Counted from the first letter of the stretch, positions 20,092 to 33,512 are shown. The stretch is DNA of 52,126 nt from a virus (IMGVR_UViG_3300048599_000179:1-52126); one strand, 5' to 3'. A program made the numbers and translations. Notes: generated by a model from the sequence alone, not told the origin.

Positions 20092-20110
20092 CGTCACCGC
20101 TTCGAAGCGC

Positions 20111-20304: not shown

Positions 20305-20367
20305 TAATCAACAAGCAAGCAGGGCGCGGCGTCTCCACCGTCACTCGTAACCAGGAGACAAACCAAC

Positions 20368-21274: not shown

Positions 21275-21435
21275 CCATGTCCAACGTCATCGATCTCTCC
21301 AAACACGCATCACGGAAAAAGGACCTTGAGGTGGTGTCGGCCTTCTCGCGACAGTTCTCGCTCGTCATTCGAGAGTTGATTGCGCTCGTGAGAGATGTCC
21401 GGGCCGGGAAGAGAAGGAGCCTAGTCGATGGATGA
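21271..21435 (+). CDS. Hypothetical protein (54 aa)
   Basis: Not in the ORF track. ATGA overlap; SNVIDL motif. Confidence 0.45.
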   Translation: MTMSNVIDLSKHASRKKDLEVVSAFSRQFSLVIRELIALVRDVRAGKRRSLVDG

Positions 21436-22411
21436 GTTTCAGTTCTGGCGCGATGCGCTGGCAGGAAAGAAGGTCGAGATCAGCGCTGACGCTCCGCAGC
21501 CCGGCTATTACAAGACGCGGACGCGCAAGGATGGCCCGTATGTGCCCGTCGCGATCTGGACCGCAAACGGAGAGCTGGTCTGCCGCGTCGGCAACGAGAA
21601 GCGTGATCCTGTCAGCGTGTGGACGTTCTGCGCTGACAAGCCCGTTTCGAAGGATGATGCGAAGCACGCCTTTGAGCATGGGACGTGGCCTGACATGCCG
21701 ACCGACATTCCGGCATCCAACATGCCCAGCGATCCGCTCGAAGCGCTCAAGATGGAAATCGCTGACAAGGAAGCGCAGGCAGAATCTCTCCTGGCCTCTG
21801 GATCGGCCGAGAGGAACGCAGCCGATGCAAACAAGGCCCGCAATATCCAGGCCAAGCTTCTAGACCTCAAGAAGCGGGCCGATGATCTGTTCGAGGCGGA
21901 GAAGGCGCCCATTCGCGTCAAGGCAAACGCTATCGATGAGAAGTACAGGTTCCGCGATGCAGTTAAGTCTGTCGCTGATCGGCTCCGCAAAGCCTACGAA
22001 CGCTTCGCCAAGGCTGAAGAAGACCGCTTGCGCGCAGAGGCTCAGAAGAAGTTCGAGGCTGAGCGCGCAGCATTGGAAGCGGCGCGCAAGGCCGCGGAAG
22101 AGGCGCAAGCTAAGCTGCTACGCGAAGACCCTATAGCGGCCCTCACCAGCGATCCTGAGCCGTTGCCTGAACTACCGCTGGCACCCGAGCCGGTCAAAGT
22201 GCAGATCGGCGGCGGATTTGGTCGCAAGGCTGGCCTAAAAACCGATTGGCTTGCGCAGGTCGAAGACTATGCGGCGGCCACCTCACACTTTGCCGATCAC
22301 CCCGATGTAAAGGCTCTCATTGAGAAGCTGGCTACCAAGGCGGTGAAGGCAGCCAAGGGCGCAATCTCTATTCCAGGCGTGAAGGTGGTCGAGGAAAGGC
22401 GCGCGGCATGA
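21428..22411 (+). CDS. Coiled-coil recombination-module protein
   Basis: PQPGYY...VPVAIW N-terminus, a long coiled coil and an IPGV C-terminus; sits upstream of RecT. Confidence 0.75.
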   Translation: MDEFQFWRDALAGKKVEISADAPQPGYYKTRTRKDGPYVPVAIWTANGELVCRVGNEKRDPVSVWTFCADKPVSKDDAKHAFEHGTWPDMPTDIPASNMPSDPLEALKMEIADKEAQAESLLASGSAERNAADANKARNIQAKLLDLKKRADDLFEAEKAPIRVKANAIDEKYRFRDAVKSVADRLRKAYERFAKAEEDRLRAEAQKKFEAERAALEAARKAAEEAQAKLLREDPIAALTSDPEPLPELPLAPEPVKVQIGGGFGRKAGLKTDWLAQVEDYAAATSHFADHPDVKALIEKLATKAVKAAKGAISIPGVKVVEERRAA

Positions 22412-23259
22412 ACGAGACAGTCGCCACATCAGACGGTCTGGTCTCACTCCCTGCCATTCAGGAAATGGCACAGACCTACAAGCTCAGCGCCAAGGCGTTC
22501 GCCTTCACGTTTCGCGCCGTCGCGATGCCTCAGCCTCATACGGAAGCTGAGTTCGTGTCCTGCTGCCTCGTAGCCCGTGAGCACGGCCTGAACCCGCTCA
22601 CGAAAGAAATCTACTTCATGCGGGATAAGCACGGAAACATTCAGGCCATCGTCGGCATCGACGGCTGGATCAAGAAGTGCAACGAGCATCCGCAGTTCGA
22701 CGGTCTGGAGTTTGAGCATACGCACAAGGCTGACGCGCTGGTTTCAATCAAGGCGCGCATCTTCCGCAAGGACAGAACGCGCGCAATTGAGATCACCGAG
22801 TTCATGAGCGAGTGCGTTCAGGTCCGAAAGACGGAAGGGCCTTGGCAATCACACCCGAGCCGGATGCTTCGGCATCGCGCCTTGGCTCAATGCGCCCGTG
22901 TTGCCTTCGGGTTTGCCGGCGTGATGGATCGCGAAGAGTTCGATCAGTGGCAGGCGATGAAGGATGTCACGCCTGCCAAGGATGCCATCGCTGACACGGG
23001 CTGCCAATCACTGCCAGATCTGCCGGAAATACCAGACATTCCCGATCTGCCGGATATTTCCGGCGAAAGCCAGGATGCTCATCACGACGATCTCATTGCA
23101 GACGTAGACGGGTTTCTCGCTGACCTCGAAGAGCAGCGTTCCTATTGCCAAAGCGAGGACGATCTTCGCGAACTCATGGAGTCTAGGTCGGACTTGATCG
23201 AGCGCCTTCCCGCGCCCGCCAAGGCGAAGGCTCTCAAGATTTTGGAGATCGAGGAATGA
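22408..23259 (+). CDS. RecT/Red-beta family single-strand annealing protein
   Basis: GLNPLTKEIY, IVGIDGW, PW.SHP.RMLRH.AL.QCAR.AFGFAG..D.EE. Confidence 0.9.
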   Translation: MNETVATSDGLVSLPAIQEMAQTYKLSAKAFAFTFRAVAMPQPHTEAEFVSCCLVAREHGLNPLTKEIYFMRDKHGNIQAIVGIDGWIKKCNEHPQFDGLEFEHTHKADALVSIKARIFRKDRTRAIEITEFMSECVQVRKTEGPWQSHPSRMLRHRALAQCARVAFGFAGVMDREEFDQWQAMKDVTPAKDAIADTGCQSLPDLPEIPDIPDLPDISGESQDAHHDDLIADVDGFLADLEEQRSYCQSEDDLRELMESRSDLIERLPAPAKAKALKILEIEE

Positions 23260-23624
23260 CAGCCGTCCAGCGCCTTCAGCAAGAGATGCCGGAGCGAGAG
23301 CAGTCAACGGTCGAGAAGTTCCGGCTTGTCGCTCTTCAATTCTGCGACGCCGATGCTGCCGCGTCTCTGATGGAAGAACTCAAGACCACCACACTCGCCA
23401 AGATGAAGGCCGACCTCATTTTGCGCGAAGGCCCGATGGCCGACAACAAGGCGGAAATGACGGTGAAGGCATCTCGGGATTGGGAGGACTACATCCGCGA
23501 CATGTGCGGGCACCGAGCTAAAGCGACAAAGTTCAAGCTCCAGCTAGAATATCTTCGAATGCTGGACAGGAAGGAAGATCGAGAGGCCTGGGCGGCACGC
23601 ACCGAGCATCGGATGAGCCGGTGA
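23256..23624 (+). CDS. Hypothetical helical protein
   Basis: Coupled to RecT; coiled-coil character. Confidence 0.65.
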   Translation: MTAVQRLQQEMPEREQSTVEKFRLVALQFCDADAAASLMEELKTTTLAKMKADLILREGPMADNKAEMTVKASRDWEDYIRDMCGHRAKATKFKLQLEYLRMLDRKEDREAWAARTEHRMSR

Positions 23625-23813
23625 ATGCCAGTCGTCTCGCCAATTCGCAGTTCATCCGACAGGCAGAGAGAAATCCTCTCACTGCCATACGGGACAAGGA
23701 TCGCGATAGCGAGGAAATCGGCAAGAGAAGGCTACGGGTTCGAGGATCTGATGATTTCGTTCAACATCTCTGAGAGCGACGCGAGACGCATTGTGTTCGG
23801 GAGGGACGAGTGA
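23625..23813 (+). CDS. Small HTH-like protein
   Basis: GYGFEDL...FNISESDARRIV. Confidence 0.5.
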   Translation: MPVVSPIRSSSDRQREILSLPYGTRIAIARKSAREGYGFEDLMISFNISESDARRIVFGRDE

Positions 23814-24241
23814 CCCGCAAGCGCCGCACAGCAGAGCATCGCGAGGAAGACGTGATCCCTATTCGACAGCGCCTAGCACGCAAGAACAAGAAGAGCGCCG
23901 CAGAGAAGCGCGAGGGCAACTCCGAGGCCCATCTCCTTCTCATTCGTCTGTTGCCCTGCTGCGTGACCGGAAAGAAAGCGCCCAACGACCCTCACCATTT
24001 GAAGGAAGGTCTTGCGCACGAACGCGGGCTCGGGCGCCGGTCAACAGATCGCTGGGCCGTTCCGCTATCCCGCGAGAAGCACGATGAAGTTGAGCGCATA
24101 GGGTCTCGGAATGAATGGGCTTGGTTTCGTCAGCACGGAATCGAAGACCCGTTGGAACTGGCAGCGGCACTGTGGCGGAACACCGGAGACCTGGAGCGGA
24201 TGCGCAAGGTTCTCGCCGCACACGTAGGAAGGACACGGTGA
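23810..24241 (+). CDS. DUF968-like (HNH-fold) protein
   Basis: HL..IR.LPCCV.G....PHH...G.G.R..D.WAVPL.R..H. Confidence 0.75.
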   Translation: MTRKRRTAEHREEDVIPIRQRLARKNKKSAAEKREGNSEAHLLLIRLLPCCVTGKKAPNDPHHLKEGLAHERGLGRRSTDRWAVPLSREKHDEVERIGSRNEWAWFRQHGIEDPLELAAALWRNTGDLERMRKVLAAHVGRTR

Positions 24242-24486
24242 TGATTCCAGACACGATCACTCTGAACGGGGACGCGTATGTGCGCGCAACACCGGATCAG
24301 ATAGCCGCAGAAGTGGCGAGCTGGGACAGCGATGCACAAGCACAGCTTTTCAACTGTCTGGGAGCGTTATGCAAAACGTGGGGTTCGTGGAATTACGCGG
24401 AGCCGCACTGGTGCGACATGGCAGGACACCTCAACGAGGATGGACGCGGTGTGCTCCAGTCCATCTCACAATTCTTAGACGACTGA
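24241..24486 (+). CDS. Hypothetical protein
   Basis: MIPDTITL...; coupled gene. Confidence 0.5.
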   Translation: MIPDTITLNGDAYVRATPDQIAAEVASWDSDAQAQLFNCLGALCKTWGSWNYAEPHWCDMAGHLNEDGRGVLQSISQFLDD

Positions 24487-24532
24487 ACAGTTGTCCCGCG
24501 TTGAGGACAGAACAGAGGAGAGCGCCACCTAA

Positions 24533-24775
24533 ATGGACCCCGACACTCACCAGGACGCCGAGCGGCGGATGATCATCATCCTGAGCATCATCGCTGTCGT
24601 CACGGCTATCGGCGTCGGCGTGCTGCTCCGCGAGCTGTACTACGGGGCCTACCCCCATCTTCGCCCGCAGTCGGCTGTGTCAGCGGGCATCGTCGAGACC
24701 TGCAACATCGAGTGCGTACTGCGTCGCGTGACGATCCTTGAAACCCGTATGGATGCCGTGGAGGGAAAGCGGTGA
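24533..24775 (+). CDS. Single-TM hypothetical protein
   Basis: GAGGAG RBS; TM IIILSIIAVVTAIGVGVLL. Confidence 0.55.
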   Translation: MDPDTHQDAERRMIIILSIIAVVTAIGVGVLLRELYYGAYPHLRPQSAVSAGIVETCNIECVLRRVTILETRMDAVEGKR

Positions 24776-25107
24776 CACACAAAGATGATGGCATCAAATT
24801 TACGCGGGGGCCTTGGTGTTACGCGGGGCGTCTCGGATTCGGACATCTGATCTACCCCAACATCGCCGTCGCATATGGCGGGGAAGCCAGCGGGCGAGCT
24901 GAGCATGGCGAAGCCAATGCCCGCCTGATCGCAGCCGCTCCCGATATGTTCGAGGCGCTGAGCCGCTGGGTCGATCTGGCCGAGACCGCGATCCGCGAGC
25001 TTGGCATAGAGCCCCACCCCGATGAGCGAAAATGTCTCGACCTCGCGCGTAACGCGCTCACTAAGGCCCGCGCCACCCCTGTCTCTGATACCGGGGGTGA
25101 AGAATGA
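24772..25107 (+). CDS. Phage protein with T.GPW / ANARLIAAAP motif
   Basis: FTRGPW...EANARLIAAAPDMFEAL, a common phage family. Confidence 0.7.
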   Translation: MTHKDDGIKFTRGPWCYAGRLGFGHLIYPNIAVAYGGEASGRAEHGEANARLIAAAPDMFEALSRWVDLAETAIRELGIEPHPDERKCLDLARNALTKARATPVSDTGGEE

Positions 25108-25409
25108 CGGCTCCCGCACCTACGCCTACAAAGTACGTTGCTGCACGCATGCTCGGTCGCTGCGCCAACGGCAACGAGGCAGACGGTGGGCACCTGTATC
25201 ACGCGATACGCGAGGATCGGCTGTCCTGGGCAGCCGTTTGCGGCGCGACGCCTGGCCGCCGCTCAGCAGGCTGGTCGGATTACCCTGACAGCCTGCGGCC
25301 CATCGAAAACGTGACATGCGCCCGTTGCAAGCGGGCGATGGAAATGTTCGGTGTGCTCAGGCGCCGCGCCCCGCGCACTGAGGGATCTGACACCGGGGGT
25401 GCGCCATGA
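25104..25409 (+). CDS. Hypothetical Zn-binding protein
   Basis: H.....CG.....VTCARC. Confidence 0.65.
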   Translation: MTAPAPTPTKYVAARMLGRCANGNEADGGHLYHAIREDRLSWAAVCGATPGRRSAGWSDYPDSLRPIENVTCARCKRAMEMFGVLRRRAPRTEGSDTGGAP

Positions 25410-25651
25410 GGCTCGAAGTCTCGGACGTCCGCCTTTCCAGCGAGTTCGCCAAGATGGCGAAGGCGTGTAAGGCGCCCCTTCCGTGGGACGTTGACGCTCT
25501 CGGTCGCGTGCACGACGCGCGCGGGTTGGTCATCTGTGAACTCGACATCGCTGGCGAGCGCGACAGGATCGCCGCTGCGCATCTCATCGTCCTCGCGGTC
25601 AACACCTGCGGCGGGTTCAAGGCGGTTTCTGATACCGGGGGTGCGAAGTGA
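25406..25651 (+). CDS. Hypothetical protein
   Basis: PLPW...A.LIV.AVN; ATGA-coupled. Confidence 0.65.
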   Translation: MRLEVSDVRLSSEFAKMAKACKAPLPWDVDALGRVHDARGLVICELDIAGERDRIAAAHLIVLAVNTCGGFKAVSDTGGAK

Positions 25652-25893
25652 CACAGCACGAACTATTGGGCCGAGACGTTTTGGACCTCATCGCCGCCGT
25701 CGAGGCCAAGACCGGCGAGCCGAACGCGCAGCTTACGTTGCTTTCGTCCGCTATCGCGCTCGTGGCGATCCGCCACGGCATTCGCGAGCAGGACCTGCTG
25801 CGCGGCATGGGACAGGCGTTCCGGCAGGCCGTGCGCAAAGCTCCGAATTTCGCGAACAAATACGGCACCCCGCGCACTGAGGGAGAGAGCTGA
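25648..25893 (+). CDS. Hypothetical protein
   Basis: GTGA-coupled. Confidence 0.6.
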   Translation: MTQHELLGRDVLDLIAAVEAKTGEPNAQLTLLSSAIALVAIRHGIREQDLLRGMGQAFRQAVRKAPNFANKYGTPRTEGES

Positions 25894-26147
25894 TGTGGTC
25901 ACCGGACATGGTGAGCTTTGATTTGGCCGTCCACTTTGTCGAGCGCACGCTCGTCGCGTCAGGCTCAATATCAAACGGTCCTCTGATGCTCCGCAAGGCG
26001 CACGAGGCCGCCGTTGCAGCAGCCGTCCTGGCCGAGCGCGAGGCGTGCGCAAAGGTGATCGAGGATTGGCCGACCTGGGACGTATGGAGATCCGAAGGCG
26101 CCGCCGCCATCCGCGCCCGCTATAAGGACGGAGGCGGTCATGGCTAA
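25893..26147 (+). CDS. Hypothetical protein (EREACA...AAAIRAR family)
   Basis: AEREACAKV...AAAIRAR motif. Confidence 0.65.
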   Translation: MWSPDMVSFDLAVHFVERTLVASGSISNGPLMLRKAHEAAVAAAVLAEREACAKVIEDWPTWDVWRSEGAAAIRARYKDGGGHG

Positions 26148-26394
26148 GGCAGCCCGCAGTAAATACCGCCCAAAGCAGGATGATCCCCGCATGACAGAGC
26201 CGCGACCTTACAACCTCGCCGATCCGGCCGAAGTCGATCGGTTGCACCATGAACTGCAGGGCTACATGCGCGTCAGCCTCCAGGACGGCACCGACACCGA
26301 GGGTCGCGCGCACGCCTACGCCGCGCTCTGCGAACTCAATCGTCGCAAGGCCCGCCCCACCGCTCCGAAGGCAGATGTGGGAGGTGAGGCGTGA
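26140..26394 (+). CDS. Hypothetical protein
   Basis: GGAGG RBS; coupled gene. Confidence 0.6.
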   Translation: MAKAARSKYRPKQDDPRMTEPRPYNLADPAEVDRLHHELQGYMRVSLQDGTDTEGRAHAYAALCELNRRKARPTAPKADVGGEA

Positions 26395-26675
26395 GCAAAG
26401 CATTCATCGCGATTGTTGAGACCCCACTGGGCGTCTGGGAGAGCACGGCGGCTGTATGCACCGGGCGCGAAGCCGAGTATCGGGCTAAGCAGTGGGCAAA
26501 GTCCAAATTCGCGCGGGAGATCCTGCCGCCCTTCATCGAGAAGGGCATCGACACCGTCGTGGAATCCGTGTGGCGCGCCGCGACCAACAACGGCTGTCGC
26601 CTCATCGTGCGCGAAATCGAAATTGAGCCGTACCGCCCCAGTCCCGCTCCTAAGGACGGAGGGGCCGATGTTTGA
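26391..26675 (+). CDS. Hypothetical protein
   Basis: GGAGG RBS; GTGA overlap. Confidence 0.6.
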   Translation: MSKAFIAIVETPLGVWESTAAVCTGREAEYRAKQWAKSKFAREILPPFIEKGIDTVVESVWRAATNNGCRLIVREIEIEPYRPSPAPKDGGADV

Positions 26676-26829
26676 GGGACCGCCCCTGAGCCAAAACAAG
26701 AAGGCACTCCTTAAGATCATCGCTGAGCGCACGGAGAGCGCGCGGGGCGATCACAACCGCGAAACGCACGCGACGCTCCTAGCCCTCCTCCGCGCTTTGT
26801 CCAACGGATCTCAGGAGGGGGTTGCCTAA
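26668..26829 (+). CDS. Hypothetical protein (53 aa)
   Basis: GGAGGGG RBS; MFEGPPLSQNKK... Confidence 0.55.
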   Translation: MFEGPPLSQNKKALLKIIAERTESARGDHNRETHATLLALLRALSNGSQEGVA

Positions 26830-27071
26830 TGCGAGTTTCCCTCGATGGGTTTGTCTCAAGCACGTGCTCTGCGCTGAAGTGCAGCCGTGACAGCCATGGC
26901 GCGAGCTTCGCCTACATCCTTGAGGGATTGCGCGACGACATCAGCGCAGTCGTCAGGGGCGAGAAGACAATCGAACAGTTTGCGGAATTTTGGTGCGTAA
27001 AGCCCGCCCGCACAGAAGCCGCAACGAACGCCTTGTCCGCCCGTGACCAGCAAGACGGAGGCGGGGGATGA
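26829..27071 (+). CDS. Hypothetical protein
   Basis: TAATG coupling. Confidence 0.6.
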   Translation: MRVSLDGFVSSTCSALKCSRDSHGASFAYILEGLRDDISAVVRGEKTIEQFAEFWCVKPARTEAATNALSARDQQDGGGG

Positions 27072-27508
27072 CGACAATCAGCGCAACCGATATCGCGGGC
27101 AACATCATCAAGCGCGTTGCGGAGTTGCCTGACAGAAGCAGCCCCGACTATTGGCCCGACGCCATGCTCGTGACCGCCGACGAGTTGAAGTTCATTCTCC
27201 TCTCTGAGTTTTCCGAGCATAGCATGATGTCCAACCCGGGAGTCATTGCCGACGCGCAAGCGGCTATCGCGATTTCAGACGGCGTGGCCAAGCTGAAGGC
27301 CGATCTTCAGACGGCGTTTTCAAGCGGGATTGAACACGCAGCCAAGCTGATCGACCGCAAGCTAGCCGACTACACCTCCGAACACGGGTCATTCGATCCA
27401 GAGACCGGCGCAACCGAGTTCTCTCGCTCCGGCGAGGAGTATGTCTCCACGCTCGAAGAATTGGCTGAAGAGATCCGCCTCGCCCGCACTGAAGGAGGAC
27501 AGGGGTGA
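27068..27508 (+). CDS. Hypothetical mosaic protein
   Basis: VAELPDRSSP..WP.AMLVT..EL N-terminal module. Confidence 0.65.
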   Translation: MTTISATDIAGNIIKRVAELPDRSSPDYWPDAMLVTADELKFILLSEFSEHSMMSNPGVIADAQAAIAISDGVAKLKADLQTAFSSGIEHAAKLIDRKLADYTSEHGSFDPETGATEFSRSGEEYVSTLEELAEEIRLARTEGGQG

Positions 27509-27810
27509 TGGAACACGAACTGAAAACGCTTCCCGCCTACTACGAACCCGTGTCTCGGGGCGAGAAGACATTCGAAGTGCGGCGCGACGACCGAGGGTTT
27601 CAGAAAGGCGACACGCTGGTCCTTCGCGAATTCCTGCGGTTCCCGCCAGGACTCACGCAATACGAACGCGAGCGCAATCAGTACACCGGCCGCTCCGTGC
27701 GCTGCAAAGTTCTGTGGGTGCTCACGGGCGGTCAATTCGGCATCGAGCCCGGCTACGTTGTCATGGCCATTGAAGCCGACCGTCTCTCTACTCAGGAAGG
27801 GGGACTGTGA
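27505..27810 (+). CDS. DUF3850 / ASCH-like domain protein
   Basis: HELK..P.YY..V..G.K.FE.R.DDR.FQ.GD.L.LRE...YTGR...GYVVM. Confidence 0.85.
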   Translation: MMEHELKTLPAYYEPVSRGEKTFEVRRDDRGFQKGDTLVLREFLRFPPGLTQYERERNQYTGRSVRCKVLWVLTGGQFGIEPGYVVMAIEADRLSTQEGGL

Positions 27811-28217
27811 TGGCATTCGCTGAACGAACAAAAGTCCCCGCGAACCAATCCCGGGGAGAAATCGAAGCTCTCCTTGTCAAATACAAGGCCACCTCGGTCG
27901 CCGTTTTCAACTCGGCGGACCAAGCCGCCATCGCTTTCGAGATGGAGGGGCGCCGGATCATATTTCGGCTCGCTCTCCCCAAAGGAACCGACCAGAAAGC
28001 AGAGCAAGAGAAGCGCCGCAAGTGGCGCGCCCTACTGCTTTCCATAAAGGCGAAGCTCGCATCTATCGAAGACGGCATTGAGAGTTTCGAAGACGCCTTC
28101 CTCTCGCACATTGTGATGCCTGACGGCATGACCGTTGGCGAGCACACGCGCCCAAGAATTCAGTCTGCGTACCAGGACAACAAAATGACGCCGCTCCTGC
28201 CGGGACCGAAAAAATGA
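27807..28217 (+). CDS. Conserved phage hypothetical protein
   Basis: A..T.V...SR.EIE..L..Y...WRAL.L.IKAKL.....GI..FE.AFL..I..PDG. Confidence 0.75.
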   Translation: MMAFAERTKVPANQSRGEIEALLVKYKATSVAVFNSADQAAIAFEMEGRRIIFRLALPKGTDQKAEQEKRRKWRALLLSIKAKLASIEDGIESFEDAFLSHIVMPDGMTVGEHTRPRIQSAYQDNKMTPLLPGPKK

Positions 28218-28474
28218 AACAGATCAGCTACGACACATACCTCAAGGCGCTCGCACTTTTCGTAATGGCTGCGGAGAAATACCAAGAAGCACAAGCGTTT
28301 CAAATCGCGCTTGGAAATACACTTGGGTACCCCAAGGACGAGACCTATTTTGGCTTCTTGAGCGACGTCACTTACGACACCCCATCCATTCGCGCCTTTG
28401 AGGAGGCGCTACGGAAAGAAGGCTTCGAGGTTGCGTCGAGTCCCCTCTCACCGGAGGGCACCAATCGTGGCTAG
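28214..28474 (+). CDS. Hypothetical protein
   Basis: ATGA-coupled. Confidence 0.55.
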   Translation: MKQISYDTYLKALALFVMAAEKYQEAQAFQIALGNTLGYPKDETYFGFLSDVTYDTPSIRAFEEALRKEGFEVASSPLSPEGTNRG

Positions 28475-28769
28475 GACCTGCCCGACCTGCGACGGCGAGA
28501 AAATCGTGTTCGTCTTTGCAGACGGTCACCGCGCCGATGGATCGCCGTTTCACGATAACGGCCCGCGCAATTGTTGCACCTGCGCCGGCACGGGCGAGAT
28601 CACCGACGAGCACGCCGAGCGCATCACTGAAGGACAGCGGATGCGTCTAGAGAGGATCGGCAACGGTCTCACATTACGCGAAGCCGCCCACCTGGCCGGG
28701 ACAACACCAGCCAAGTTGTCGGCCCTTGAACAAGGTCGGATTCCGGAGGGCACCGCAGATGCAGAGTGA
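28467..28769 (+). CDS. Zn-finger plus XRE HTH protein
   Basis: CPTCDG...CCTCAGTG then GLTLREAA...LS.LEQG. Confidence 0.7.
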   Translation: MARTCPTCDGEKIVFVFADGHRADGSPFHDNGPRNCCTCAGTGEITDEHAERITEGQRMRLERIGNGLTLREAAHLAGTTPAKLSALEQGRIPEGTADAE

Positions 28770-29748
28770 GACGCCATCGATCCGAATTTTCAACTGCGAC
28801 GTGATGGACGGCCTCGCTCAGCTTTCCGACCAGAGCGTTGATTGCGTCGTCACCAGCCCGCCCTATTGGGGGCTGCGCGACTACGGCGTGGCGGGCCAGA
28901 TTGGGATTGAACCCTCGCCTGAAGCATTCATCGCCCGAATGGTCGAGGTCTTCAATGAGGTGCGCCGCGTGCTCAGGGACGATGGCACGCTGTGGCTCAA
29001 CATCGGGGACACATACAGAGATAAGCAGCTTGTCGGCGTTCCATGGCGAACCGCTCTCGCGTTGCAAGCTGACGGTTGGCTCCTGCGCTCAGAAATCATA
29101 TGGGACAAAGCTGCCCACAAGCCAGAACGTGTTCGAGACCGCCCAACGAATTCGCACGAGCGCTTCTTTCTCTTCAGCAAGAAGCCGCGCTACTTCTACG
29201 ATGCTGATGCTGTCGCAATGCCATCTGCTAGTTCACAGGGGCGTCCTCAGCGTGCCCGCGCGGAGGAGATCGCGAAGCAGTCTGGCCTTACTGAGGAACA
29301 CCTAGCGGCAATTCGATCTGTTGGGATCACCGATGTTGGAAAGGCGCGGGAAACACAATCTGGCGTTGGGCGCAATCGTCCGGAAGTCCAGGCGTTGGCA
29401 GACGAAGCGAAGGCCGTTCTCAAAGGTTACTTCCGTGAATTCCTAATTGGCGACACGGTCAATATGCGGAGCGTTTGGAAGGTAAAATCTACGACGTATC
29501 CCGGCGTGCATACAGCAGTGTTTCCACCTGCGCTCATCGAACCGTGCATTAAGGCTGGGTGCCCTGTAGGCGGAACCGTCCTTGATCCCTTCGGCGGCGC
29601 CGGGACAACCGCACTCGTTGCGAAGCATCTGAAACGCAACGCAGTTCTGATCGAGCTAAATCCAGAATACGCAGCGATGGCGGAGCGTCGAATTGACGAT
29701 GCGCAGCCGCAGGAACTTTTCGACCTGACGGAGACAGTCGATGCTTAA
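28759..29748 (+). CDS. DNA methyltransferase, N4/N6 beta class
   Basis: Motif IV VTSPPY near the N-terminus, H.A.FP, motif I VLDPFGGAGT near the C-terminus; no adjacent restriction nuclease. Confidence 0.93.
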   Translation: MQSETPSIRIFNCDVMDGLAQLSDQSVDCVVTSPPYWGLRDYGVAGQIGIEPSPEAFIARMVEVFNEVRRVLRDDGTLWLNIGDTYRDKQLVGVPWRTALALQADGWLLRSEIIWDKAAHKPERVRDRPTNSHERFFLFSKKPRYFYDADAVAMPSASSQGRPQRARAEEIAKQSGLTEEHLAAIRSVGITDVGKARETQSGVGRNRPEVQALADEAKAVLKGYFREFLIGDTVNMRSVWKVKSTTYPGVHTAVFPPALIEPCIKAGCPVGGTVLDPFGGAGTTALVAKHLKRNAVLIELNPEYAAMAERRIDDAQPQELFDLTETVDA

Positions 29749-29783
29749 GAGCGAACCCCGTGCGAACGCGGGAGGCACCGCAG

Positions 29784-30014
29784 ATGGCTGATACCCGCCG
29801 CCGCGGCCTCTCCGATCCATGGAAGGCAACCTTGCGAGCCGTGATGCCGAAGGGGCCGTTCTCGCTCGATGACATCGCCTTCGCGTACCCATCGGCAACG
29901 CGCCATCAGATCCGCTCTCGTGTTCATCAGTTCTGCAACAGCGGGCATTTACAGCACGTCGGAGAGGGCAGGTACGACCTGACCCCGCGCGGCATCGAAG
30001 CAATCATGGATTGA
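29784..30014 (+). CDS. Small wHTH-like protein
   Basis: GGAGG RBS; ...GHL.HV.EGRY.LTPRG. Confidence 0.55.
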   Translation: MADTRRRGLSDPWKATLRAVMPKGPFSLDDIAFAYPSATRHQIRSRVHQFCNSGHLQHVGEGRYDLTPRGIEAIMD

Positions 30015-30024
30015 GGCAACGCAG

Positions 30025-30336
30025 ATGGCTGAGACACCCGCCCCGACTGCTGAGCAGCTTATTGAGCAAATTGCGTCTGTGGCCAAAGCCGTGGGCTGGC
30101 AAGCGAACGTTGGCGCAAGCGAGATCGCCGGACAAATCGTGTCACGGCTGGCAAGGGAACCGAGCCTTATCGCACGCTTCATGCTGGAAGGGTCCGGCAT
30201 GATGATCGATGGCGAGTTCGCCCAGGAGCGAGGCTCCCTCACTTACATGGCCGCCAACGGCAATGTCTACAGCCCTGAGTTCCTCGCGGCTCACATCCAG
30301 GTTCAGAAAATCAAGCGCAACGAGGGCATCAGATGA
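30025..30336 (+). CDS. Hypothetical protein
   Basis: GAGG RBS; clean ORF. Confidence 0.6.
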   Translation: MAETPAPTAEQLIEQIASVAKAVGWQANVGASEIAGQIVSRLAREPSLIARFMLEGSGMMIDGEFAQERGSLTYMAANGNVYSPEFLAAHIQVQKIKRNEGIR

Positions 30337-31430
30337 CCATGCCTAACCCTGCAGCAGAGGTAGTGGCCTATCTTCGCGAAGAGGCCGACTTCAATCGTTC
30401 TTGGACCGATGGCAGGCGCGGTCCTCCTTTTGGTGCTGACGCTGGCTATATAGCTCGACGAAAGGAGCTGGCAAATCAGCGTGACAACTGGGCAAACGAG
30501 ATCGAACGCCTCTCCCGAGAGCGTGACACCGCACTTGCAATTGAGCGCGACCCGACTTCGAGCGAACGTGTCTGCGCTCTGATGGACGCGCAATATATGG
30601 CCGGGGCAAAGGCTGGCTGGAACGCGTCCCAATCGGAAGACCCGGAAGCTGCCTACGCAGCCCTTGGGAAATCCCGCGACGGCTATGTGAAGGTTCTCAT
30701 CGAGACGCGCTCCCCTGCCGTCTCCCGAGAGCGTGACACAGGAGTGCCGGAGGGGTGGCGTTCTCCTGGCGATCTTCCGGAACTAAAAGATGGCGAGAGG
30801 TTCGCGGCTTATCTTGCCTTCGATACAGGGGAAGTAAAACTCGCTGACTGGACCGCGTGGACAGATTACGGCTCTGAGTACCACGGCAGCACTGGCGTTT
30901 ATCTCGGACAATATGCCCAAGATGGCGACGCCCTGTACATGACCGACGACGGCTTCGAGGTGCGAAAAGACAGCGACGAACGCTGGTTTGCCGAGAAGCA
31001 TTTCGATGATGGCACCAAGACGCCGTTTTACGTCACCGGATGGATCGAGGCGCTGAAACCTATTCCCGCTCCGCCCGGCTCCGCCGCTCCGCAACCTCCC
31101 TCAGTCTCCGATCAAGCGGGAGAGATCGAACGCTGGCAGCACATCGCGAAGCAGGGCCTCGCGAAATGCACTCCCGAGCACACCTGGGCTGAATGGGTTG
31201 CGGATCGAAACGCAGAGAATGACCGCCTCTCAGCAGAGCTTGTAGAGGCGAGGAAGGAGCTGGAGCCGTTCGCGACTTTCGCCGCCAACGTCGACGAGAA
31301 CGGCTGGACATCGAACATTCACCGCGAGCAGATTTCAACGTGGTTCGGCCCAAGTGATTTCCGCCGAGCCCGCGCCGCCCTCTCCCCAAAGAAGGATACA
31401 GACACACCAGAGACGGGAGACAGCACATGA
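30333..31430 (+). CDS. Mosaic protein (Ea22-like position) upstream of xis
   Basis: EIERL/SRERDT repeats, VPEGW and PAPP linkers. Confidence 0.7.
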   Translation: MTMPNPAAEVVAYLREEADFNRSWTDGRRGPPFGADAGYIARRKELANQRDNWANEIERLSRERDTALAIERDPTSSERVCALMDAQYMAGAKAGWNASQSEDPEAAYAALGKSRDGYVKVLIETRSPAVSRERDTGVPEGWRSPGDLPELKDGERFAAYLAFDTGEVKLADWTAWTDYGSEYHGSTGVYLGQYAQDGDALYMTDDGFEVRKDSDERWFAEKHFDDGTKTPFYVTGWIEALKPIPAPPGSAAPQPPSVSDQAGEIERWQHIAKQGLAKCTPEHTWAEWVADRNAENDRLSAELVEARKELEPFATFAANVDENGWTSNIHREQISTWFGPSDFRRARAALSPKKDTDTPETGDST

Positions 31431-31458
31431 CCCCTGTGTGGATGAGGGAGACTGACGT

Positions 31459-31794
31459 ATGAGCGACCTTCGCATTTCAGACATTGCTGATCTCACCGGC
31501 TTTTCCATGCGCTACTGGCAGCGCCGGGCGTCCGCTGGCGACATTCCAGGAACGCGCGTGGTAAAGCTGGGCGAGCGCCGCACCTACCTCGTTGACGCGG
31601 ACAAGTTCTCGAAGTGGTGGCGCGCCCAGCAGGAGGAGGTGAAGCCATGTCAAAAAATCCCCGGAATCTCCGGAGGCGGGGCGGTGTCTGGTGGTATCGG
31701 ATCACCAAGGGCGGGACGACATTCGAGGGGTCGCTTCAAACCCCAGACGTTGGAGTCGCTAAAGAACGACTTAAAGGTGTCCGTCGAGAACTAA
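31459..31794 (+). CDS. xis: Excisionase-like HTH protein
   Basis: ISDIADLTGFSMRYW.R....G.IPG...LG; precedes and overlaps int. Confidence 0.65.
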   Translation: MSDLRISDIADLTGFSMRYWQRRASAGDIPGTRVVKLGERRTYLVDADKFSKWWRAQQEEVKPCQKIPGISGGGAVSGGIGSPRAGRHSRGRFKPQTLESLKNDLKVSVEN

Positions 31795-32726
31795 CCGCCA
31801 CACGGTACGGCGAGAAGCCCAGGCGAACCTTCGATGAAGCCGCCCGGCGTTTTGCGAAAGAGCACTTCCCTACCCTGCGTCAGAAAAGTCGCCTGCGTTA
31901 TTCCGTGAGCCTGCGTGCCCTGGCCGATCATTTCCACGGGGTCTATCTCGATGATGTTGGTTCCGCAAAGCTTGGGGATTTTGAGCGTGCCCGTCTGGGG
32001 GCTGGCGTGACGACGACGACCGTGCGCCGCGACTTAGCTTGCCTCTCGTCGCTCTACTCGCGCGCCGAGGAATGGGAGTGGGTCACAAGCAACCCCGTTA
32101 AGCCCTACAAGCGCGGGCGGGCCAAGGCCGGACTCAAGGAGGGACCGGCGCGCACCAGGTACCTGTCCATTCAGGAGGAGGAGGCCATCCTCCCTCTACT
32201 TCCGCCCAAGGCAAAAGATGCCGTGGCCTTCGCCATCGATACCGGACTCCGGAAGGAGGAGCAGTTTTCGCTAGAACTCACAGACATCAACCTGGATGAG
32301 AGAGAGATAACTGTTCGCGCTGAGGTTGCTAAAACAGGTGTCGAGAGGCGGGTTCCTCTGCTCGACCGGGCCTTAGCCATCGCTATCAAATTGTCAGCGA
32401 ATCGCGTGGGGCGAGTGCCGCTGTTCGTAACCGCCAAAGGAAAGCGCTACAGCGCGAATAGCCCGACGATGTACGAGGCGCTTCAGAAGGGCTGTCGCAG
32501 GGCTGGCGTGGCTAGGTGCTCATGGCATGACTTGCGTAGAACCGCGGGTTGTAGGCTCCTGCAGGAGCATGGATTTTCAATGCAGGAAGTTTCCCTATGG
32601 CTCGGCCATTCCGATATACGCGTTACACAGCAGCGCTATGCGTTTTTGCGAATAACCGACCTGCATAGGGCCCTTGGCCGGCCATCTAACGTGGTTGCTC
32701 TCAGACGGAGGACAGATGACAAGTGA
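31647..32726 (+). CDS. int: Tyrosine integrase
   Basis: AGGAGGAGG RBS; catalytic TGLRKEE, AKT, HDLRR, LGHS and RYA. Confidence 0.95.
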   Translation: MSKNPRNLRRRGGVWWYRITKGGTTFEGSLQTPDVGVAKERLKGVRRELTATRYGEKPRRTFDEAARRFAKEHFPTLRQKSRLRYSVSLRALADHFHGVYLDDVGSAKLGDFERARLGAGVTTTTVRRDLACLSSLYSRAEEWEWVTSNPVKPYKRGRAKAGLKEGPARTRYLSIQEEEAILPLLPPKAKDAVAFAIDTGLRKEEQFSLELTDINLDEREITVRAEVAKTGVERRVPLLDRALAIAIKLSANRVGRVPLFVTAKGKRYSANSPTMYEALQKGCRRAGVARCSWHDLRRTAGCRLLQEHGFSMQEVSLWLGHSDIRVTQQRYAFLRITDLHRALGRPSNVVALRRRTDDK

Positions 32727-33330
32727 CCTAATTGGCGCACGCTTCGCGTGGCTGACCGTCATTTCATATGAGATCGATCCGCATCGGAAACGTGGCATGC
32801 TTACTTGTCGTTGCGACTGCGGTCGGATGACCGTCGTCAGAAAGGGCAGCATTACGAGCGGCGGCACGATCTCCTGCGGTTGCCGCCGGGGCAAAAACTC
32901 GAGACACGGTATGAAGGGCACGCCGGAGTACATGGCGTACGATGCTGCGCGGCAACGGTGCCGGCGGCGGTCCCACAGCCAGTACCGGAACTATGGCGGC
33001 CGCGGCATCGAGTTTAGGTTCGACAACTTCGAGCAATTCTTCTCGGAGATAGGAGCGCGCCCGGACCCGTCGTTTTCTCTCGATCGCATTGACGTCAACG
33101 GACACTACGAGACCGGAAACGTCCGATGGGCTGCACTCGAAATGCAGATGAACAACCGCCGAGACAACGTTCGCCTGGTTCTGGACGGCCGCGAGATGAC
33201 CATGGCGCAGTGGAGTCGGTCTCTAGACATACCCTATCAGACGATCAAGGCGCGCCATGCCAAAGGGTGGCCGGTTGCGGAAGTTTTGGACTGCAGGAAG
33301 GTACAAAACAAGGGACAATCTGGCGATTGA
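32716..33330 (+). CDS. HNH-type homing endonuclease
   Basis: G.RF..LTV, CRCDCG, SCGC, YGGRGI, SLDRIDVNG.YE..NVRWA...Q.NN. Confidence 0.85.
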   Translation: MTSDLIGARFAWLTVISYEIDPHRKRGMLTCRCDCGRMTVVRKGSITSGGTISCGCRRGKNSRHGMKGTPEYMAYDAARQRCRRRSHSQYRNYGGRGIEFRFDNFEQFFSEIGARPDPSFSLDRIDVNGHYETGNVRWAALEMQMNNRRDNVRLVLDGREMTMAQWSRSLDIPYQTIKARHAKGWPVAEVLDCRKVQNKGQSGD

Positions 33331-33512
33331 CTGGAATAACCGCAGCAAATCATATAGATTCCACCATGGTCTGCGATCTGCAAATCCGCGTACCCCGGTT
33401 CAATTCCGGGCGTGGCCTCCATCACTTTCTAAGCAGATCAACGACTTGACCAGAAGCGAGACGCGCCATTCGCGTCCTGCGCGCGGTTCGCGTTGGGACA
33501 ATTCTTGGGACA
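33300..33512 (+). mobile_element. attP region: core identical in form to the 3' half of tRNA-Cys(GCA), with arm-type repeats
   Basis: 33378-33421 reads CTGCAAATCCGCGTACCCCGGTTCAATTCCGGGCGTGGCCTCCA (anticodon loop, T-arm, acceptor, CCA) with no 5' half. GG(G/T)ACA pairs spaced 12 bp at 33300/33312 and 33495/33507; IHF-like GATCAACGACTTG at 33436. Confidence 0.85.

What the first reader, a model, noticed from the sequence alone, without database searches (positions are those of the whole stretch)
24772..30336. Cassette-like array of small genes joined by shared stop/RBS/start boundary repeats, just downstream of RecT
Seen in the sequence: about 17 unrelated small genes are translationally coupled, and their junctions reuse a few short sequence families. 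TCTGA(T/C)ACCGGGGGTG occurs at 25084, 25386 and 25628 (proteins end SDTGG). CCCCGCGCACTGAGGGA is identical at 25369 and 25868, with a variant CCCGCACTGAAGGA at 27483. CCCGCT(A/CC)TAAGGACGGAGG occurs at 26116 and 26643, with a variant AAGACGGAGGCGG near 27052. CTCAGGA(A)GGGGG occurs near 26810 and 27791, CCGGAGGGCACC at 28451 and 28743, and GGCA(C/A)CGCAGATG at 28749, 29774 and 30015. The matches extend well beyond the Shine-Dalgarno core, and the junction at 25369-25403 stacks two families. Established: RecT/Red-beta proteins anneal short, imperfect homologies. Inference: the repeats act as standardised connectors, so whole genes can be gained, lost or swapped with RBS and coupling intact. That would be an integron-like accessory array driven by the phage's own annealase rather than a site-specific recombinase.
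Basis: partly seen in the sequence, partly recalled or inferred. Interest (0 to 1): 0.8.

Follow-up and report, generated by a model that had tools for sequence, protein, structure and literature searches.

The report
Shared gene-junction linkers for phage cassette swapping
In this temperate phage a row of 17 small genes is joined by short stop/ribosome-site/start sequences, and related phages keep those same sequences while carrying unrelated genes between them, a very clean example of the long-proposed "linker" route to mosaic phage genomes and not a new kind of system.

Summary
Observation confirmed. All six repeat families sit at the stated coordinates. Array junctions share long words far more often than gene interiors. 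They also do so more than 23 other coupled junctions of the same genome: 8 of 153 pairs against 0 of 253 share 10 nt or more.

The window is a whole temperate phage. The array is the accessory part of its early operon, between RecT/exonuclease and excisionase/integrase.

Five mosaic relatives (L005, L016, L017, L054, L055) and contigs of four public runs keep junction islands at 93-100% identity, mostly 25-46 nt long and in the same order. The genes between them are unrelated, for example ASCH-like against Mom-like, or methyltransferase against Lar-like. Homology blocks end near start codons. One gene's presence or absence ends exactly in the repeat CCGGAGGGCACC.

The connector idea is therefore supported. 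The RecT-specific and integron-like parts are not. Relatives with the same linkers encode Erf-like or Sak4-like proteins, and there are no attC-like sites or promoter/terminator cassettes.

This is the known boundary or linker kind (modular theory, PeSL analogue). This scan has already found it on other DNA.

The parts
22408..23259 (+). RecT-family single-strand annealing protein (context; exonuclease-like gene 21428-22411 lies upstream)
   Evidence: Pfam RecT 4e-24. PHROG Bet/RecT-like 1.6e-55 and exonuclease phrog_10477. The gene is itself mosaic: nucleotide homology to L005 starts inside it at about 22956.
24772..30336 (+). Array of 17 coupled small genes. It includes phrog_1273 (24772-25107), DUF3850/ASCH-like (27505-27810), phrog_17260 (27807-28217), HTH (28467-28769) and an N6/N4 DNA methyltransferase (28759-29748).
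   Evidence: ORFs and junctions. Family hits. No promoter-like or convincing + strand terminator sites at the junctions.
25066..25103 (+). Junction island F1 copy 1 (core TCTGATACCGGGGGTG, 25084-25099): tail ..SDTGG, SD, then start 25104
   Evidence: The L017 homology block ends at 25099. Run contigs join 25093->26352, 25093->26380 and 25099->25868, and carry other sequence before 25066/25070.
25366..25405 (+). Stacked junction: F2 copy 1 (25369-25385) directly followed by F1 copy 2 (25386-25401), then start 25406
25625..25652 (+). F1 copy 3 (core 25628-25643), start 25648
25865..25895 (+). F2 copy 2 island (core 25868-25884), start 25893. Together with copy 1 it brackets a 499-nt, two-gene segment.
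   Evidence: An X3 contig joins 25099->25868 and diverges right after 25895.
26123..26149 (+). F3 copy 1 (TAAGGACGGAGG..), start 26140
   Evidence: L054 carries the same downstream gene behind a different (J_C-like) junction, with homology starting at 26127. X1 has a loose end behind 26118.
26352..26397 (+). Junction island (tail ..RPTAPKADVGGEA, SD, GTG 26391)
   Evidence: 46 nt at 97.8% identity in L017, between unrelated genes and directly behind an F1 copy. X3 joint 25093->26352.
26632..26662 (+). Junction island / F3 copy 2 (start 26668)
   Evidence: 28 nt at 100% identity in L017, flanked by unrelated genes. X3 and X4 contigs diverge behind 26659.
26803..27036 (+). 234-nt insertion relative to L054, L016 and L055: its own junction (CTCAGGAGGGGG..) plus the body of gene 26829-27071. 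It splits a tail that is contiguous in the relatives and is flanked by a TTGTCC repeat.
   Evidence: Homology to relatives stops at 26802 and resumes at 27029. Sequence.
27029..27071 (+). Junction island J_C (tail ..LSARDQQDGGGG, SD, ATG 27068)
   Evidence: 38-43 nt at 95-97% identity in L054/L055 with other downstream genes. It is also the left edge of the 99.8-99.9% blocks in L005/L016.
27472..27514 (+). Junction island J_D (tail ..ARTEGGQG, SD, GTG/ATG 27505/27508).
   Evidence: 35 of 36 columns invariant in 5 genomes with unalignable flanks. It joins 3 upstream and 4 downstream gene families.
27769..27814 (+). Junction island J_E (tail ADRLSTQEGGL, SD, GTG/ATG 27807/27810).
   Evidence: 30 invariant columns (27775-27804) in 5 genomes. 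It joins 4 upstream and 5 downstream families. X8 holds the island as a 31-nt contig of its own.
28433..28465 (+). Junction island J_F (core CCGGAGGGCACC, 28451-28462), GTG 28467
28463..28754 (+). 292-nt HTH-gene cassette, present in W and L016 and absent from L054 and L005. Its endpoints lie in the two CCGGAGGGCACC copies.
   Evidence: left and right contexts around GGAGGGCACC.
28743..28775 (+). Junction island J_G (CCGGAGGGCACCGCAGATGCAGAGTGAGACGCC), including the first 5-6 codons (MQSET) of the next gene
   Evidence: The same start is used by a methyltransferase (W), phrog_464 (L016) and a Lar-like gene (L054).
29753..29799 (+). Junction island J_H (..GGGAGGCACCGCAGATGGCTGA..), ATG 29784
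   Evidence: 25-43 nt at 87.5-96% identity in L016, L054 and L055. An X1 contig replaces 29792-30024 by 512 other letters.
30013..30043 (+). Junction island (GAGGCAACGCAGATGGCTGAGACACCC), ATG 30025
   Evidence: 28-31 nt at 90-96% identity in L005, L016, L054 and L055. Repeat D5.
31614..32726 (+). Tyrosine integrase at the end of the operon (context). An HTH_17 excisionase-like gene lies at 31459-31794.
   Evidence: Pfam Phage_integrase 1.2e-20 and PHROG integrase 5.5e-53.

Best explanation
The 17 genes are the accessory part of the early operon of a temperate phage. They are read from one message and are translationally coupled. Each junction is a unit of about 25-46 nt. It comprises the last ~10 codons of the upstream gene, which contain the Shine-Dalgarno sequence, then the stop/start overlap, and up to 6 codons of the next gene. 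Between otherwise diverged phages of this group these units are almost the only conserved DNA in the array. They keep their order, while the gene bodies between them are replaced by unrelated genes. They therefore serve as short homology patches (linker or boundary sequences). General or relaxed homologous recombination between co-infecting phages and prophages can swap, add or delete gene bodies at these patches without losing reading frame, ribosome-binding site or coupling. The repeats seen inside this genome are paralogous copies of such units. They are both products of and substrates for out-of-register exchange. Shown here: the conservation pattern, the position of the breakpoints, and the gene presence/absence ending inside the repeats. 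Inferred: that homology-guided recombination, and not selection alone, places the breakpoints; and which enzyme acts (a phage annealing protein such as RecT here, or host RecA).
For: 1. Breakpoints. 64 of 77 blastn block ends (39 of 51 distinct positions) between the array and five relatives lie within 45 nt of a start codon, against 25% expected. 24 of 25 blocks of 60 nt or less sit on a junction.
2. Islands. L054 and L055 share almost only 25-46-nt junction blocks with the window over 27029-30043, at 93-100% identity (one is weaker, 86.8%). They lie in the same order but at different spacing. Alignments show 30 and 35 invariant columns between unalignable flanks.
3. The same junction family joins different genes. 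J_D joins 3 upstream and 4 downstream families in 5 genomes. J_E joins 4 and 5. The GGAGGGCACC family (8 junctions) joins 7 and 6.
4. Slot occupants belong to different PHROG families: ASCH-like, Mom-like, methyltransferases, Lar-like and phrog_464.
5. Around the invariant GGAGGGCACC, 3 left contexts and 4 right contexts occur in 6 combinations. The HTH gene and one gene of L055 are present or absent exactly between two copies.
6. One sample (X3) holds three different arrangements behind the F1 island.
7. Exact runs shared between genomes at one slot are 17-37 nt with unrelated flanks. This is near the minimal pairing lengths quoted in PMC3945230: 23-27 bp for Redbeta and 31-34 bp for RecA (passage read).
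8. The excess of shared words is specific to the array.
Against: No recombination was observed directly; everything is comparative and based on assembled contigs.
The five relatives and the run contigs are not independent lineages.
Gene calls and gene families come from my own simple caller and from BLASTP of protein cores.
Some events do not look homology-guided. The 26803-27036 insertion has only a 6-nt repeat. The one-gene indel 23625-23813 sits between a stop and a start with no linker. The stacked junctions look like in-frame fusions.
In the run contigs only 15 of 26 joint ends and 11 of 21 listed loose ends lie within 45 nt of a start (hand count; 12 further loose ends were not shown). 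Breakpoints inside genes are therefore common too.
The within-genome repeats are 17 nt or less exact, below the quoted pairing lengths.
How unrelated genes first acquired identical tails at the same nucleotide is not explained.
Confidence: 0.75

Rival explanations
1. The islands are conserved mainly because each is a functional translational-coupling unit. In this view an upstream pyrimidine stretch pairs with the Shine-Dalgarno sequence and hides it until the ribosome that finishes the upstream gene melts the hairpin. Recombination at the islands is incidental, and recombinants that break the unit are lost.
For: In the window the predicted probability that the SD pairs with upstream sequence is 0.72 for 18 array junctions. 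It is 0.57 when each upstream part is shuffled (Wilcoxon P=0.0025), and 0.28 for 23 other coupled junctions of the genome (Mann-Whitney P=4e-5). In the minimum-energy folds of several islands (F1, J_C, J_E, J_F, J_H, 26352) the partner of the SD lies near the 5' edge of the island.
Against: The result was not replicated. For 44 non-duplicate junctions of the relatives the values are 0.53 against 0.51 for shuffles (P=0.12). Folding energies of the 14 junction windows are ordinary, with z from -1.2 to +1.7. Four window junctions show no excess. No covariation could be tested because the islands hardly vary. Function alone does not explain why each slot has its own sequence, or why left and right contexts recombine around a common core.
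Confidence: 0.25
2. The mosaic arises by illegitimate (non-homologous or microhomology) recombination at random places, followed by selection for intact genes and intact ribosome-binding sites (the Hendrix-type model). The islands are just the retained initiation regions.
For: A 6-nt TTGTCC repeat flanks the 26803-27036 insertion. There is a linker-free one-gene indel at 23625-23813. Stacked junctions look like in-frame fusions. About half of the breakpoints in run contigs lie inside genes. PMC3029335 (passages read) states that boundary sequences cannot be found at most mosaic joints.
Against: Four different upstream genes join the J_E island at the same nucleotide, and three join J_D within a few bases. 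Islands persist with both flanks replaced. Left and right contexts combine freely around one core. Islands are more conserved (93-100%) than shared gene bodies in the same genome pairs, for example 72% and 92% in L054.
Confidence: 0.15
3. The repeats are what any set of strong Shine-Dalgarno sites embedded in GC-rich coupled genes would give by chance.
For: With the SD-to-start part masked, the within-genome excess is weak. Every shared word of 10 nt or more overlaps SD-like purine runs.
Against: 0 of 253 pairs of 23 other coupled junctions in the same genome share 10 nt or more, against 8 of 153 in the array. 0 of 500 interior resamplings reach the observed count. The same sequences recur in five other contigs and four runs.
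Confidence: 0.01
4. The apparent cassette swapping is an assembly artefact: metagenome assemblers cross between strains at shared short repeats.
For: The window's record is of unknown assembly origin, the relatives are metagenome-derived or MAG contigs, and the laid runs are k-mer-based contigs. Some run contigs end at the islands.
Against: An assembler cannot create the islands or the unrelated genes that flank them; at most it could mis-pair left and right contexts. The same islands appear in contigs from different collections and in 4 runs of 4 studies. The within-genome repeats (17 nt or less) are short compared with the word sizes assemblers commonly use (recalled, not checked for these records).
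Confidence: 0.03
5. A site-specific recombinase (integron-like) moves the cassettes, using the junction repeats as sites.
For: A tyrosine integrase closes the operon. The cassette-like layout fits.
Against: Each slot has a different junction sequence. Only 1 inverted repeat of 12 nt or more within 120 nt exists in 24400-30400, and it is not at a junction. The integrase sits next to an excisionase-like gene, like an ordinary prophage integrase. Islands differ in length and include coding tails.
Confidence: 0.02

Closest known systems
Boundary or 'linker' sequences of the modular theory of phage evolution. The sources are Susskind & Botstein 1978, Botstein 1980 and Clark et al. 2001 on HK620. 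These are known to me only through citations in PMC2839356 (Discussion) and PMC3029335 (passages) and from recall; I did not read them.
   Same: Short conserved sequences lie at module joints and are flanked by non-homologous DNA in different phages. Exchange places a module correctly and keeps its expression signals.
   Different: Here the linkers form an uninterrupted series of at least 10 distinct, slot-specific units along one operon. They lie inside coding sequence (tail, SD, start), so unrelated proteins share linker-encoded ends such as ..DRLSTQEGG and MQSET... The phage group is a GC-rich environmental one, not the enteric lambdoids.
PeSL (promoter-early stem-loop) cassettes of T4-type phages (Arbiol et al. 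2010, PMC2839356, abstract and Discussion read; Comeau et al. 2014, PMC4122927, listing and start of abstract only).
   Same: Repeated short expression signals lie between small non-essential ORFan genes and act as homology for insertion, deletion and replacement. Those authors already made the integron comparison.
   Different: PeSLs are promoter-plus-terminator units that isolate each cassette transcriptionally. Here there are no promoter-like or terminator-like sites at the junctions, and the cassettes are translationally coupled in one message. Mini-circles were shown for PeSLs. Here there is only an unexplained 418-nt contig with the J_E island at both ends.
Island3 gene 68 insertion in Cluster I mycobacteriophages (Pope et al. 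2011, PMC3029335, passages read).
   Same: An inserted small gene whose C-terminal 18 residues (~50 bp) repeat the end of the upstream gene. It was interpreted as recombination between short repeats, and it resembles the F1, F2 and CCGGAGGGCACC pairs here.
   Different: That was a single case, described as the first in mycobacteriophages. Here the pattern covers a whole array and recurs in several genomes.
Start-associated sequences (SAS/ESAS) of Cluster K mycobacteriophages (Pope et al. 2011, PMC3203893, passages read).
   Same: Conserved repeats lie immediately upstream of start codons of non-structural genes. They contain the SD core and are associated with genes of different families.
   Different: SAS is one 13-bp consensus used many times and is proposed to act in translation initiation. 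Here there are many different families with 2-3 copies each, they extend 25-40 nt into the upstream gene, and they coincide with mosaic breakpoints.
Relaxed homologous recombination by phage Rad52-like recombinases (De Paepe et al. 2014, PMC3945230, passages read; Martinsohn et al. 2008, PMC2327257, listing and start of abstract only).
   Same: This is the proposed enzymatic basis. Redbeta and RecT of phi80 recombine short and diverged sequences, with minimal pairing of 23-27 bp quoted for Redbeta.
   Different: Those studies measured exchange over hundreds of bases of diverged homology. Nothing was measured here, and relatives with the same linkers carry other annealing-protein families.
Integrons
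   Same: Promoterless cassettes sit in a row and are expressed from one end, with gain and loss of single genes.
   Different: There is no intI/attI, no attC-like folded sites and no single recombination-site family. The resemblance is an analogy only.

Membership tests
Phage boundary/linker sequences (modular theory) | Short sequence conserved between phages at a gene or module joint, with non-homologous DNA on both sides | tested here: met
   Invariant blocks of 30 and 35 nt with unalignable flanks in 5 genomes. For 76 junction pairs with both flanking gene cores different, island identity is 0.68 against 0.28/0.29 in the flanks.
Phage boundary/linker sequences (modular theory) | Exchange points of mosaic segments fall in or at these sequences | tested here: met
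   64 of 77 block ends lie within 45 nt of a start, against 25% expected. Contexts recombine around GGAGGGCACC. Run joints fall at F1, F2, 26397/26632 and 29791/30025. Breakpoints inside genes also exist.
Phage boundary/linker sequences (modular theory) | The linker supplies correct placement and expression of the incoming module | tested here: inconclusive
   Each island carries tail, SD and start in frame, so expression signals are retained by construction. Expression itself was not measured.
Phage boundary/linker sequences (modular theory) | Exchange depends on homologous recombination functions | not testable with these tools
   Only comparative data are available. RecT/exonuclease here, and Erf-like, Sak4-like or NinB/Orf in relatives, are annotated by family hits.
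PeSL-type mobile regulatory cassettes | Repeated unit consisting of an early promoter plus a stem-loop terminator between ORFans | tested here: not met
   2 promoter-like sites in 19000-33500 (shuffles give a mean of 3.8), none at an array junction, and no convincing + strand terminator at the junctions.
PeSL-type mobile regulatory cassettes | Circular cassette intermediates (mini-circles) | not testable with these tools
   Only a 418-nt contig in run X8 that begins and ends with the J_E island. It could be a tandem arrangement, a loop in the assembly graph, or a circle.
Integron | IntI-type integrase with attI next to the first cassette | tested here: not met
   The only integrase is at the far end, beside an excisionase-like HTH_17 gene, as in prophages.
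Integron | attC sites (imperfect inverted repeats) bounding each cassette | tested here: not met
   1 inverted repeat of 12 nt or more within 120 nt in 24400-30400, and it is not at a junction.
Start-associated sequences (Cluster K mycobacteriophages) | One asymmetric 13-bp consensus 3-7 bp upstream of many start codons | tested here: not met
   At least six different families with 2-3 copies each, and no single consensus beyond the SD.

The most novel reading that the evidence does not exclude
The array is an evolved cassette-exchange scaffold that does not depend on any one recombinase. It is an ordered series of at least 10 different slot-specific 'address' linkers. Between genomes, each linker is long enough (exact runs of 17-37 nt) for annealing-protein or RecA exchange with the same slot of another phage. 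The copies of a linker family inside one genome stay below that length (17 nt or less), so the array is stable in cis but freely exchangeable in trans. Every cassette protein has to tolerate linker-encoded N- and C-terminal peptides. Part of each linker may also gate translation by hiding the SD. The slots are enriched for anti-restriction functions (methyltransferases, Mom-like, Lar-like), so the scaffold would be a counter-defence gene exchange system.
Probability: 0.2. Interest if true: 0.7.

Novelty: new member of a known kind. Interest (0 to 1): 0.45.

Why it matters
How phage genomes become mosaics is an old dispute: homologous exchange at short conserved linkers, or random illegitimate joining followed by selection. 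Published surveys say linkers cannot be found at most joints (PMC3029335, passages read). This locus is an unusually complete natural example of the linker route. It is a whole operon in which almost only the junctions are conserved, and the same junctions occur in five relatives and in water, sludge and biofilter samples. It gives concrete, testable sites for measuring how short a homology a phage annealing protein or RecA can use in nature. It also shows that small phage proteins can carry junction-encoded ends that have nothing to do with their function, which matters for annotation and for family clustering. Finally, the swapped genes include DNA-modification and restriction-alleviation types, so such arrays may be where counter-defence genes circulate. 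The concept itself is not new, and this scan has met it before on other DNA.

Tried and rejected
- Megablast of 21400-31500 against the phage collection: no match.
I used the search for related loci instead.
- RecT as query: 3 viral and 2 genome loci. Only L005 shares array DNA. L001-L004 share only the recombination genes, plus one short non-array block in L003.
- F1 16-mer scan of viral contigs: 12 stretches, 1 related (same contig as L017).
- GGAGGCACCGCAGATG scan: 22 stretches, 3 related.
- F2 17-mer in viral contigs: 0.
- J_E 21-mer in metagenome contigs: 0.
- Profile of the phrog_1273-like gene (A1) in metagenome contigs: 45 distant loci. Matches to the window fall only on the conserved motif inside that gene, and I saw no array junction island.
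- J_D 25-mer with up to 2 mismatches in 58 genomes of the order of G001: only G001 itself.
- SD-occlusion hairpin idea: significant in the window, not in the relatives. Kept only as a rival.
- Paralogy of the three ..SDTGG proteins: no core similarity.
- Promoter/terminator cassettes and attC-like repeats: none.
- Public runs: all laid runs are contigs, so ongoing deletion between repeat copies in raw reads could not be examined. Parts of the stretch without cover in a run are not evidence of absence.
- Literature searches for serial translational-coupling linkers (open-access library only) found no paper on this form. I do not claim that none exists.
- The earlier-findings look-up by place returned nothing.

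Full report
WHAT THE WINDOW IS. The 52,126-base window is a single virus record. It has the gene set of a temperate tailed phage. On the - strand lie portal, terminase, head-closure, tail, DNA-ejection and endolysin genes, plus a DnaB-like helicase and an O-like initiator. On the + strand, an S24/HTH repressor at 19380-20003 is followed by a long operon. That operon runs through an exonuclease-like gene (21428-22411), RecT (22408-23259) and a DUF968/HNH gene (23810-24241). Then come the small-gene array, a 365-aa gene, an excisionase-like HTH_17 gene and a tyrosine integrase (31614-32726). The finding therefore lies in the accessory stretch between the recombination genes and int, the position where lambda carries its small non-essential early-left genes (recalled comparison). 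The scan found 2 promoter-like sites in 19000-33500, none at an array junction, and no convincing + strand terminator at a junction. The array is thus most simply one polycistronic message.

CHECK OF THE OBSERVATION. From 24772 to 30336 I count 17 + strand genes. They are joined by overlaps of 1, 4, 8 or 11 nt, or by gaps of 10 and 35 nt, and each has a strong purine-rich SD inside the end of the upstream gene. My own codon-usage caller reproduces the map. The proteins are unrelated to each other by BLASTP of their cores.

Two unbiased controls show that the sharing is not a by-product of SD sites at this GC content. Among 19 junction windows, 8 of 171 pairs share an exact run of 10 nt or more, against a mean of 0.29 for interior windows of the same genes; 0 of 500 resamplings reached 8. 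Among 23 other coupled junctions of the same genome, 0 of 253 pairs do so, against 8 of 153 for 18 array junctions. When the SD-to-start segment is masked the excess becomes weak: 1 pair at 12 nt or more (P=0.03), and P=0.38 at 9 nt or more. Within this one genome, then, the repeats are mostly SD plus spacer plus some flank.

RELATIVES. There was no close match among deposited phages. A RecT search gave one mosaic relative, L005, from a genome bin. A search with gene 27068-27508 gave L016 and L017. Scans with junction sequences gave L047/L054 and L049/L055. These are five distinct contigs.

The relation to the window is patchy in a very particular way. L005 and L016 share gene-sized blocks at 95-99.9% identity whose ends lie at junctions. 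The 99.9% block 27029-27804 starts 39 nt before ATG 27068, inside the tail of an unrelated upstream gene, and ends between the SD and the GTG at 27807. L054 and L055 share almost nothing with 27029-30043 except short blocks, mostly 25-46 nt at 93-100% identity. These blocks lie on 27029-27071, 27472-27514, 27769-27814, 28437-28465, 28743-28774, 29753-29794 and 30013-30040. They keep the same order but have quite different spacing. Alignments of five genomes around two of them show 30 invariant columns (27775-27804) and 35 of 36 (27475-27510), with flanks that do not align.

QUANTIFICATION. Of 77 block ends between the array (23256-31430) and the five relatives, 64 lie within 45 nt of a start codon (39 of 51 distinct positions). 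The expected share is 25% (binomial P about 1e-26 and 2e-14). Of 25 blocks of 60 nt or less, 24 sit on a junction.

I grouped junctions by similarity and flanking proteins by their cores (termini removed). The same junction family then joins different genes. J_D (27508) joins 3 upstream and 4 downstream families in 5 genomes. J_E (27810) joins 4 and 5. The GGAGGGCACC family joins 7 and 6 in 8 junctions. J_C joins 5 and 4 in 7 junctions. For 76 between-genome junction pairs with both flanks different, in-register identity is 0.68 in the island against 0.28 and 0.29 in the flanks.

The occupants of a slot are demonstrably different proteins. Between J_D and J_E sit a DUF3850/ASCH-like protein (window, L005), a Mom-like protein (L054) and two small unknowns. 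Behind the identical start ..GCAGATGCAGAGTGAGACGC sit an N6/N4 methyltransferase (window), phrog_464 (L016) and a Lar-like protein (L054), all beginning MQSET. Caveats apply: the gene calls and families are my own simple constructions, and the relatives share ancestry.

Yes, for all six families.
- F1. The L017 block ends at 25099, the last base of copy 1, and is followed 4 nt later by the island of 26352-26397, so five window genes are missing.
- CCGGAGGGCACC. Around the invariant GGAGGGCACC, three left contexts and four right contexts occur in six combinations over eight junctions. The HTH gene (292 nt, 28463-28754) is present in the window and L016 and absent from L054 and L005, with endpoints inside the two copies. 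A 104-aa gene of L055 is bracketed in the same way.
- The variants at 27483, 27052 and 27791 are the J_D, J_C and J_E islands.
- The 26810 copy opens a 234-nt insertion (26803-27036) relative to three relatives.
- GGCAMCGCAGATG covers J_G, J_H and the 30013 island.

PUBLIC RUNS. Twenty rows from 15 studies hold part of the stretch; the best holds 0.64 of the sampled words and none holds all. That fits a population of mosaics. I laid the contigs of four runs from four studies. They give joints 25093->26352 and 25099->25868 (X3; the latter runs from the end of F1 to F2 copy 2), 25093->26380 (X1), 26397->26632 (X3), and 29791->30025 with 512 other letters between (X1). They also give loose ends before 25066/25070, where the F1 island follows another upstream gene, and behind 25895, 26659, 27803 and 29789. 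In X3, three different continuations behind the F1 island co-occur. By hand count from that output, 15 of 26 joint ends and 11 of 21 listed loose ends lie within 45 nt of a start. I left out one loose end that reads like a sequencing adapter, and 12 more were not shown. Junctions are therefore enriched, but breakpoints inside genes are common as well. All of this is contig-level evidence.

MECHANISM. The pattern is the signature expected of the linker or boundary sequences of the modular theory: islands that persist while both flanks change, constant island edges in different contexts, and free combination of left and right contexts. That theory is described in the Discussion of PMC2839356 and in passages of PMC3029335. 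I have not read the primary papers of Susskind and Botstein, Botstein, or Clark et al.

Exact runs shared between genomes at one slot are 17-37 nt where the flanks are unrelated, whereas the longest run between two junctions inside the window is 17 nt. PMC3945230 (passage read) quotes minimal efficient pairing of 23-27 bp for Redbeta and 31-34 bp for RecA, and shows that Redbeta and the RecT of phi80 dominate exchange on short, diverged homology. That makes a phage annealing protein a reasonable catalyst, but it remains an inference.

The link to RecT in particular is weakened by the relatives. L016 has an Erf-like protein, L017 a Sak4-like one, and L054 a NinB/Orf mediator and a helicase, yet they carry the same linkers. 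Not every event looks homology-guided. The 26803-27036 insertion has only a 6-nt TTGTCC repeat, the one-gene indel 23625-23813 has no linker, and the stacked junctions (F2+F1 in the window, F1 plus the 26352 island in L017) look like in-frame fusions. I therefore hold that homologous exchange at linkers is the main route (0.75), with occasional illegitimate joins creating new linker contexts.

A FUNCTIONAL RIVAL, TESTED. In several islands the minimum-energy fold pairs the SD with a pyrimidine stretch near the island's 5' edge. This suggests units that hide the SD until the upstream ribosome arrives. In the window the SD's probability of pairing upstream is 0.72, against 0.57 for shuffled upstream parts (P=0.0025) and 0.28 for control junctions. 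For 44 non-duplicate junctions of the relatives, however, it is 0.53 against 0.51 (P=0.12), and folding energies are ordinary. I keep it as a possible contributing reason for conservation, not as the explanation.

COMPARISON WITH WHAT IS KNOWN. The closest kind is the lambdoid boundary/linker sequence. The closest worked-out analogue is the PeSL cassette of T4-type phages, where repeated promoter-terminator units mediate insertion, deletion and replacement of ORFans. Those authors already compared them with integrons (PMC2839356, abstract and Discussion read). The defining PeSL and integron features were tested here and not met. A single comparable event, a ~50-bp repeat of a C-terminal tail flanking an inserted gene, was described for mycobacteriophage Island3 (PMC3029335, passages). 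SAS repeats of Cluster K phages share the position at starts but are one consensus with a proposed translational role (PMC3203893, passages). Earlier reports of this scan describe the same kind of junction linker in lambdoid, P1-like and mycobacteriophage-like DNA. I did not re-test those.

What is particular here is the completeness. There are at least ten different slot-specific linkers in series, embedded in coding sequence so that unrelated proteins share linker-encoded termini, in a GC-rich environmental phage group.

VERDICT. It is a new member of a known kind: a clean and extensive example, useful as a test bed, but not a new principle. Interest 0.45.

Noticed in passing
window 18186-18413: A 228-nt non-coding-looking stretch next to the immunity region is 95.6% identical in L055, a phage that otherwise shares almost only junction islands. 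Two sub-blocks (18188-18225, 18364-18412) are 98-100% identical in L005 and L016. It may be a conserved operator/promoter or a small RNA region.
   Followed up: no
run X8, contig record 23, matching window 27775-27805: A 418-nt contig begins and ends with the J_E island, and the island also exists as a 31-nt contig of its own. This could be two linker copies flanking a ~360-nt gene, a loop in the assembly graph, or a small circle like the PeSL mini-circles.
   Followed up: no
run X1, 58-kb contig, window 24500-25674 and 27029-29791: A contig is nearly identical to the window in these two parts (2 and 3 differences) but replaces 25675-27028. The replacement is about 1.6 kb of other DNA followed by a second, diverged copy of the 24533/24772-type gene pair. 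This relative is much closer than any fetched locus, and its exchange starts 26 nt into gene 25648.
   Followed up: partly
window 22956 (inside RecT 22408-23259); L005 7182: RecT itself is mosaic. Nucleotide homology to L005 (95%) begins in the middle of the gene, and the N-terminal halves differ.
   Followed up: partly
window 23811-23846; L005 7853-7888: The first 12 codons (MTRKRRTAEHRE) are shared at 97% by two different HNH-type genes: DUF968 in the window and phrog_333 in L005. After those codons the genes diverge. Here the linker lies on the downstream side of a start codon.
   Followed up: partly
L016 10710-11228, L017 8930-9667, L054 5555-6025 and 6230-6433; window 28759-29748: Many slot occupants are DNA-modification or anti-restriction types: three methyltransferases, a Mom-like protein and a Lar-like protein. 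The array looks like a counter-defence gene pool.
   Followed up: partly
window 30511-30529 and 30721-30739: A perfect 19-nt direct repeat (TCTCCCGAGAGCGTGACAC), 210 nt apart, lies inside the 365-aa gene 30333-31430 of unknown function (D9).
   Followed up: no
window 26140-26394 vs L054 5304-5555: The same gene body (92% identity over 26127-26340) carries different linkers at both ends in the two phages (F3 / 26352-island against J_C-like / J_D). The protein therefore has a different C-terminal tail in each.
   Followed up: partly
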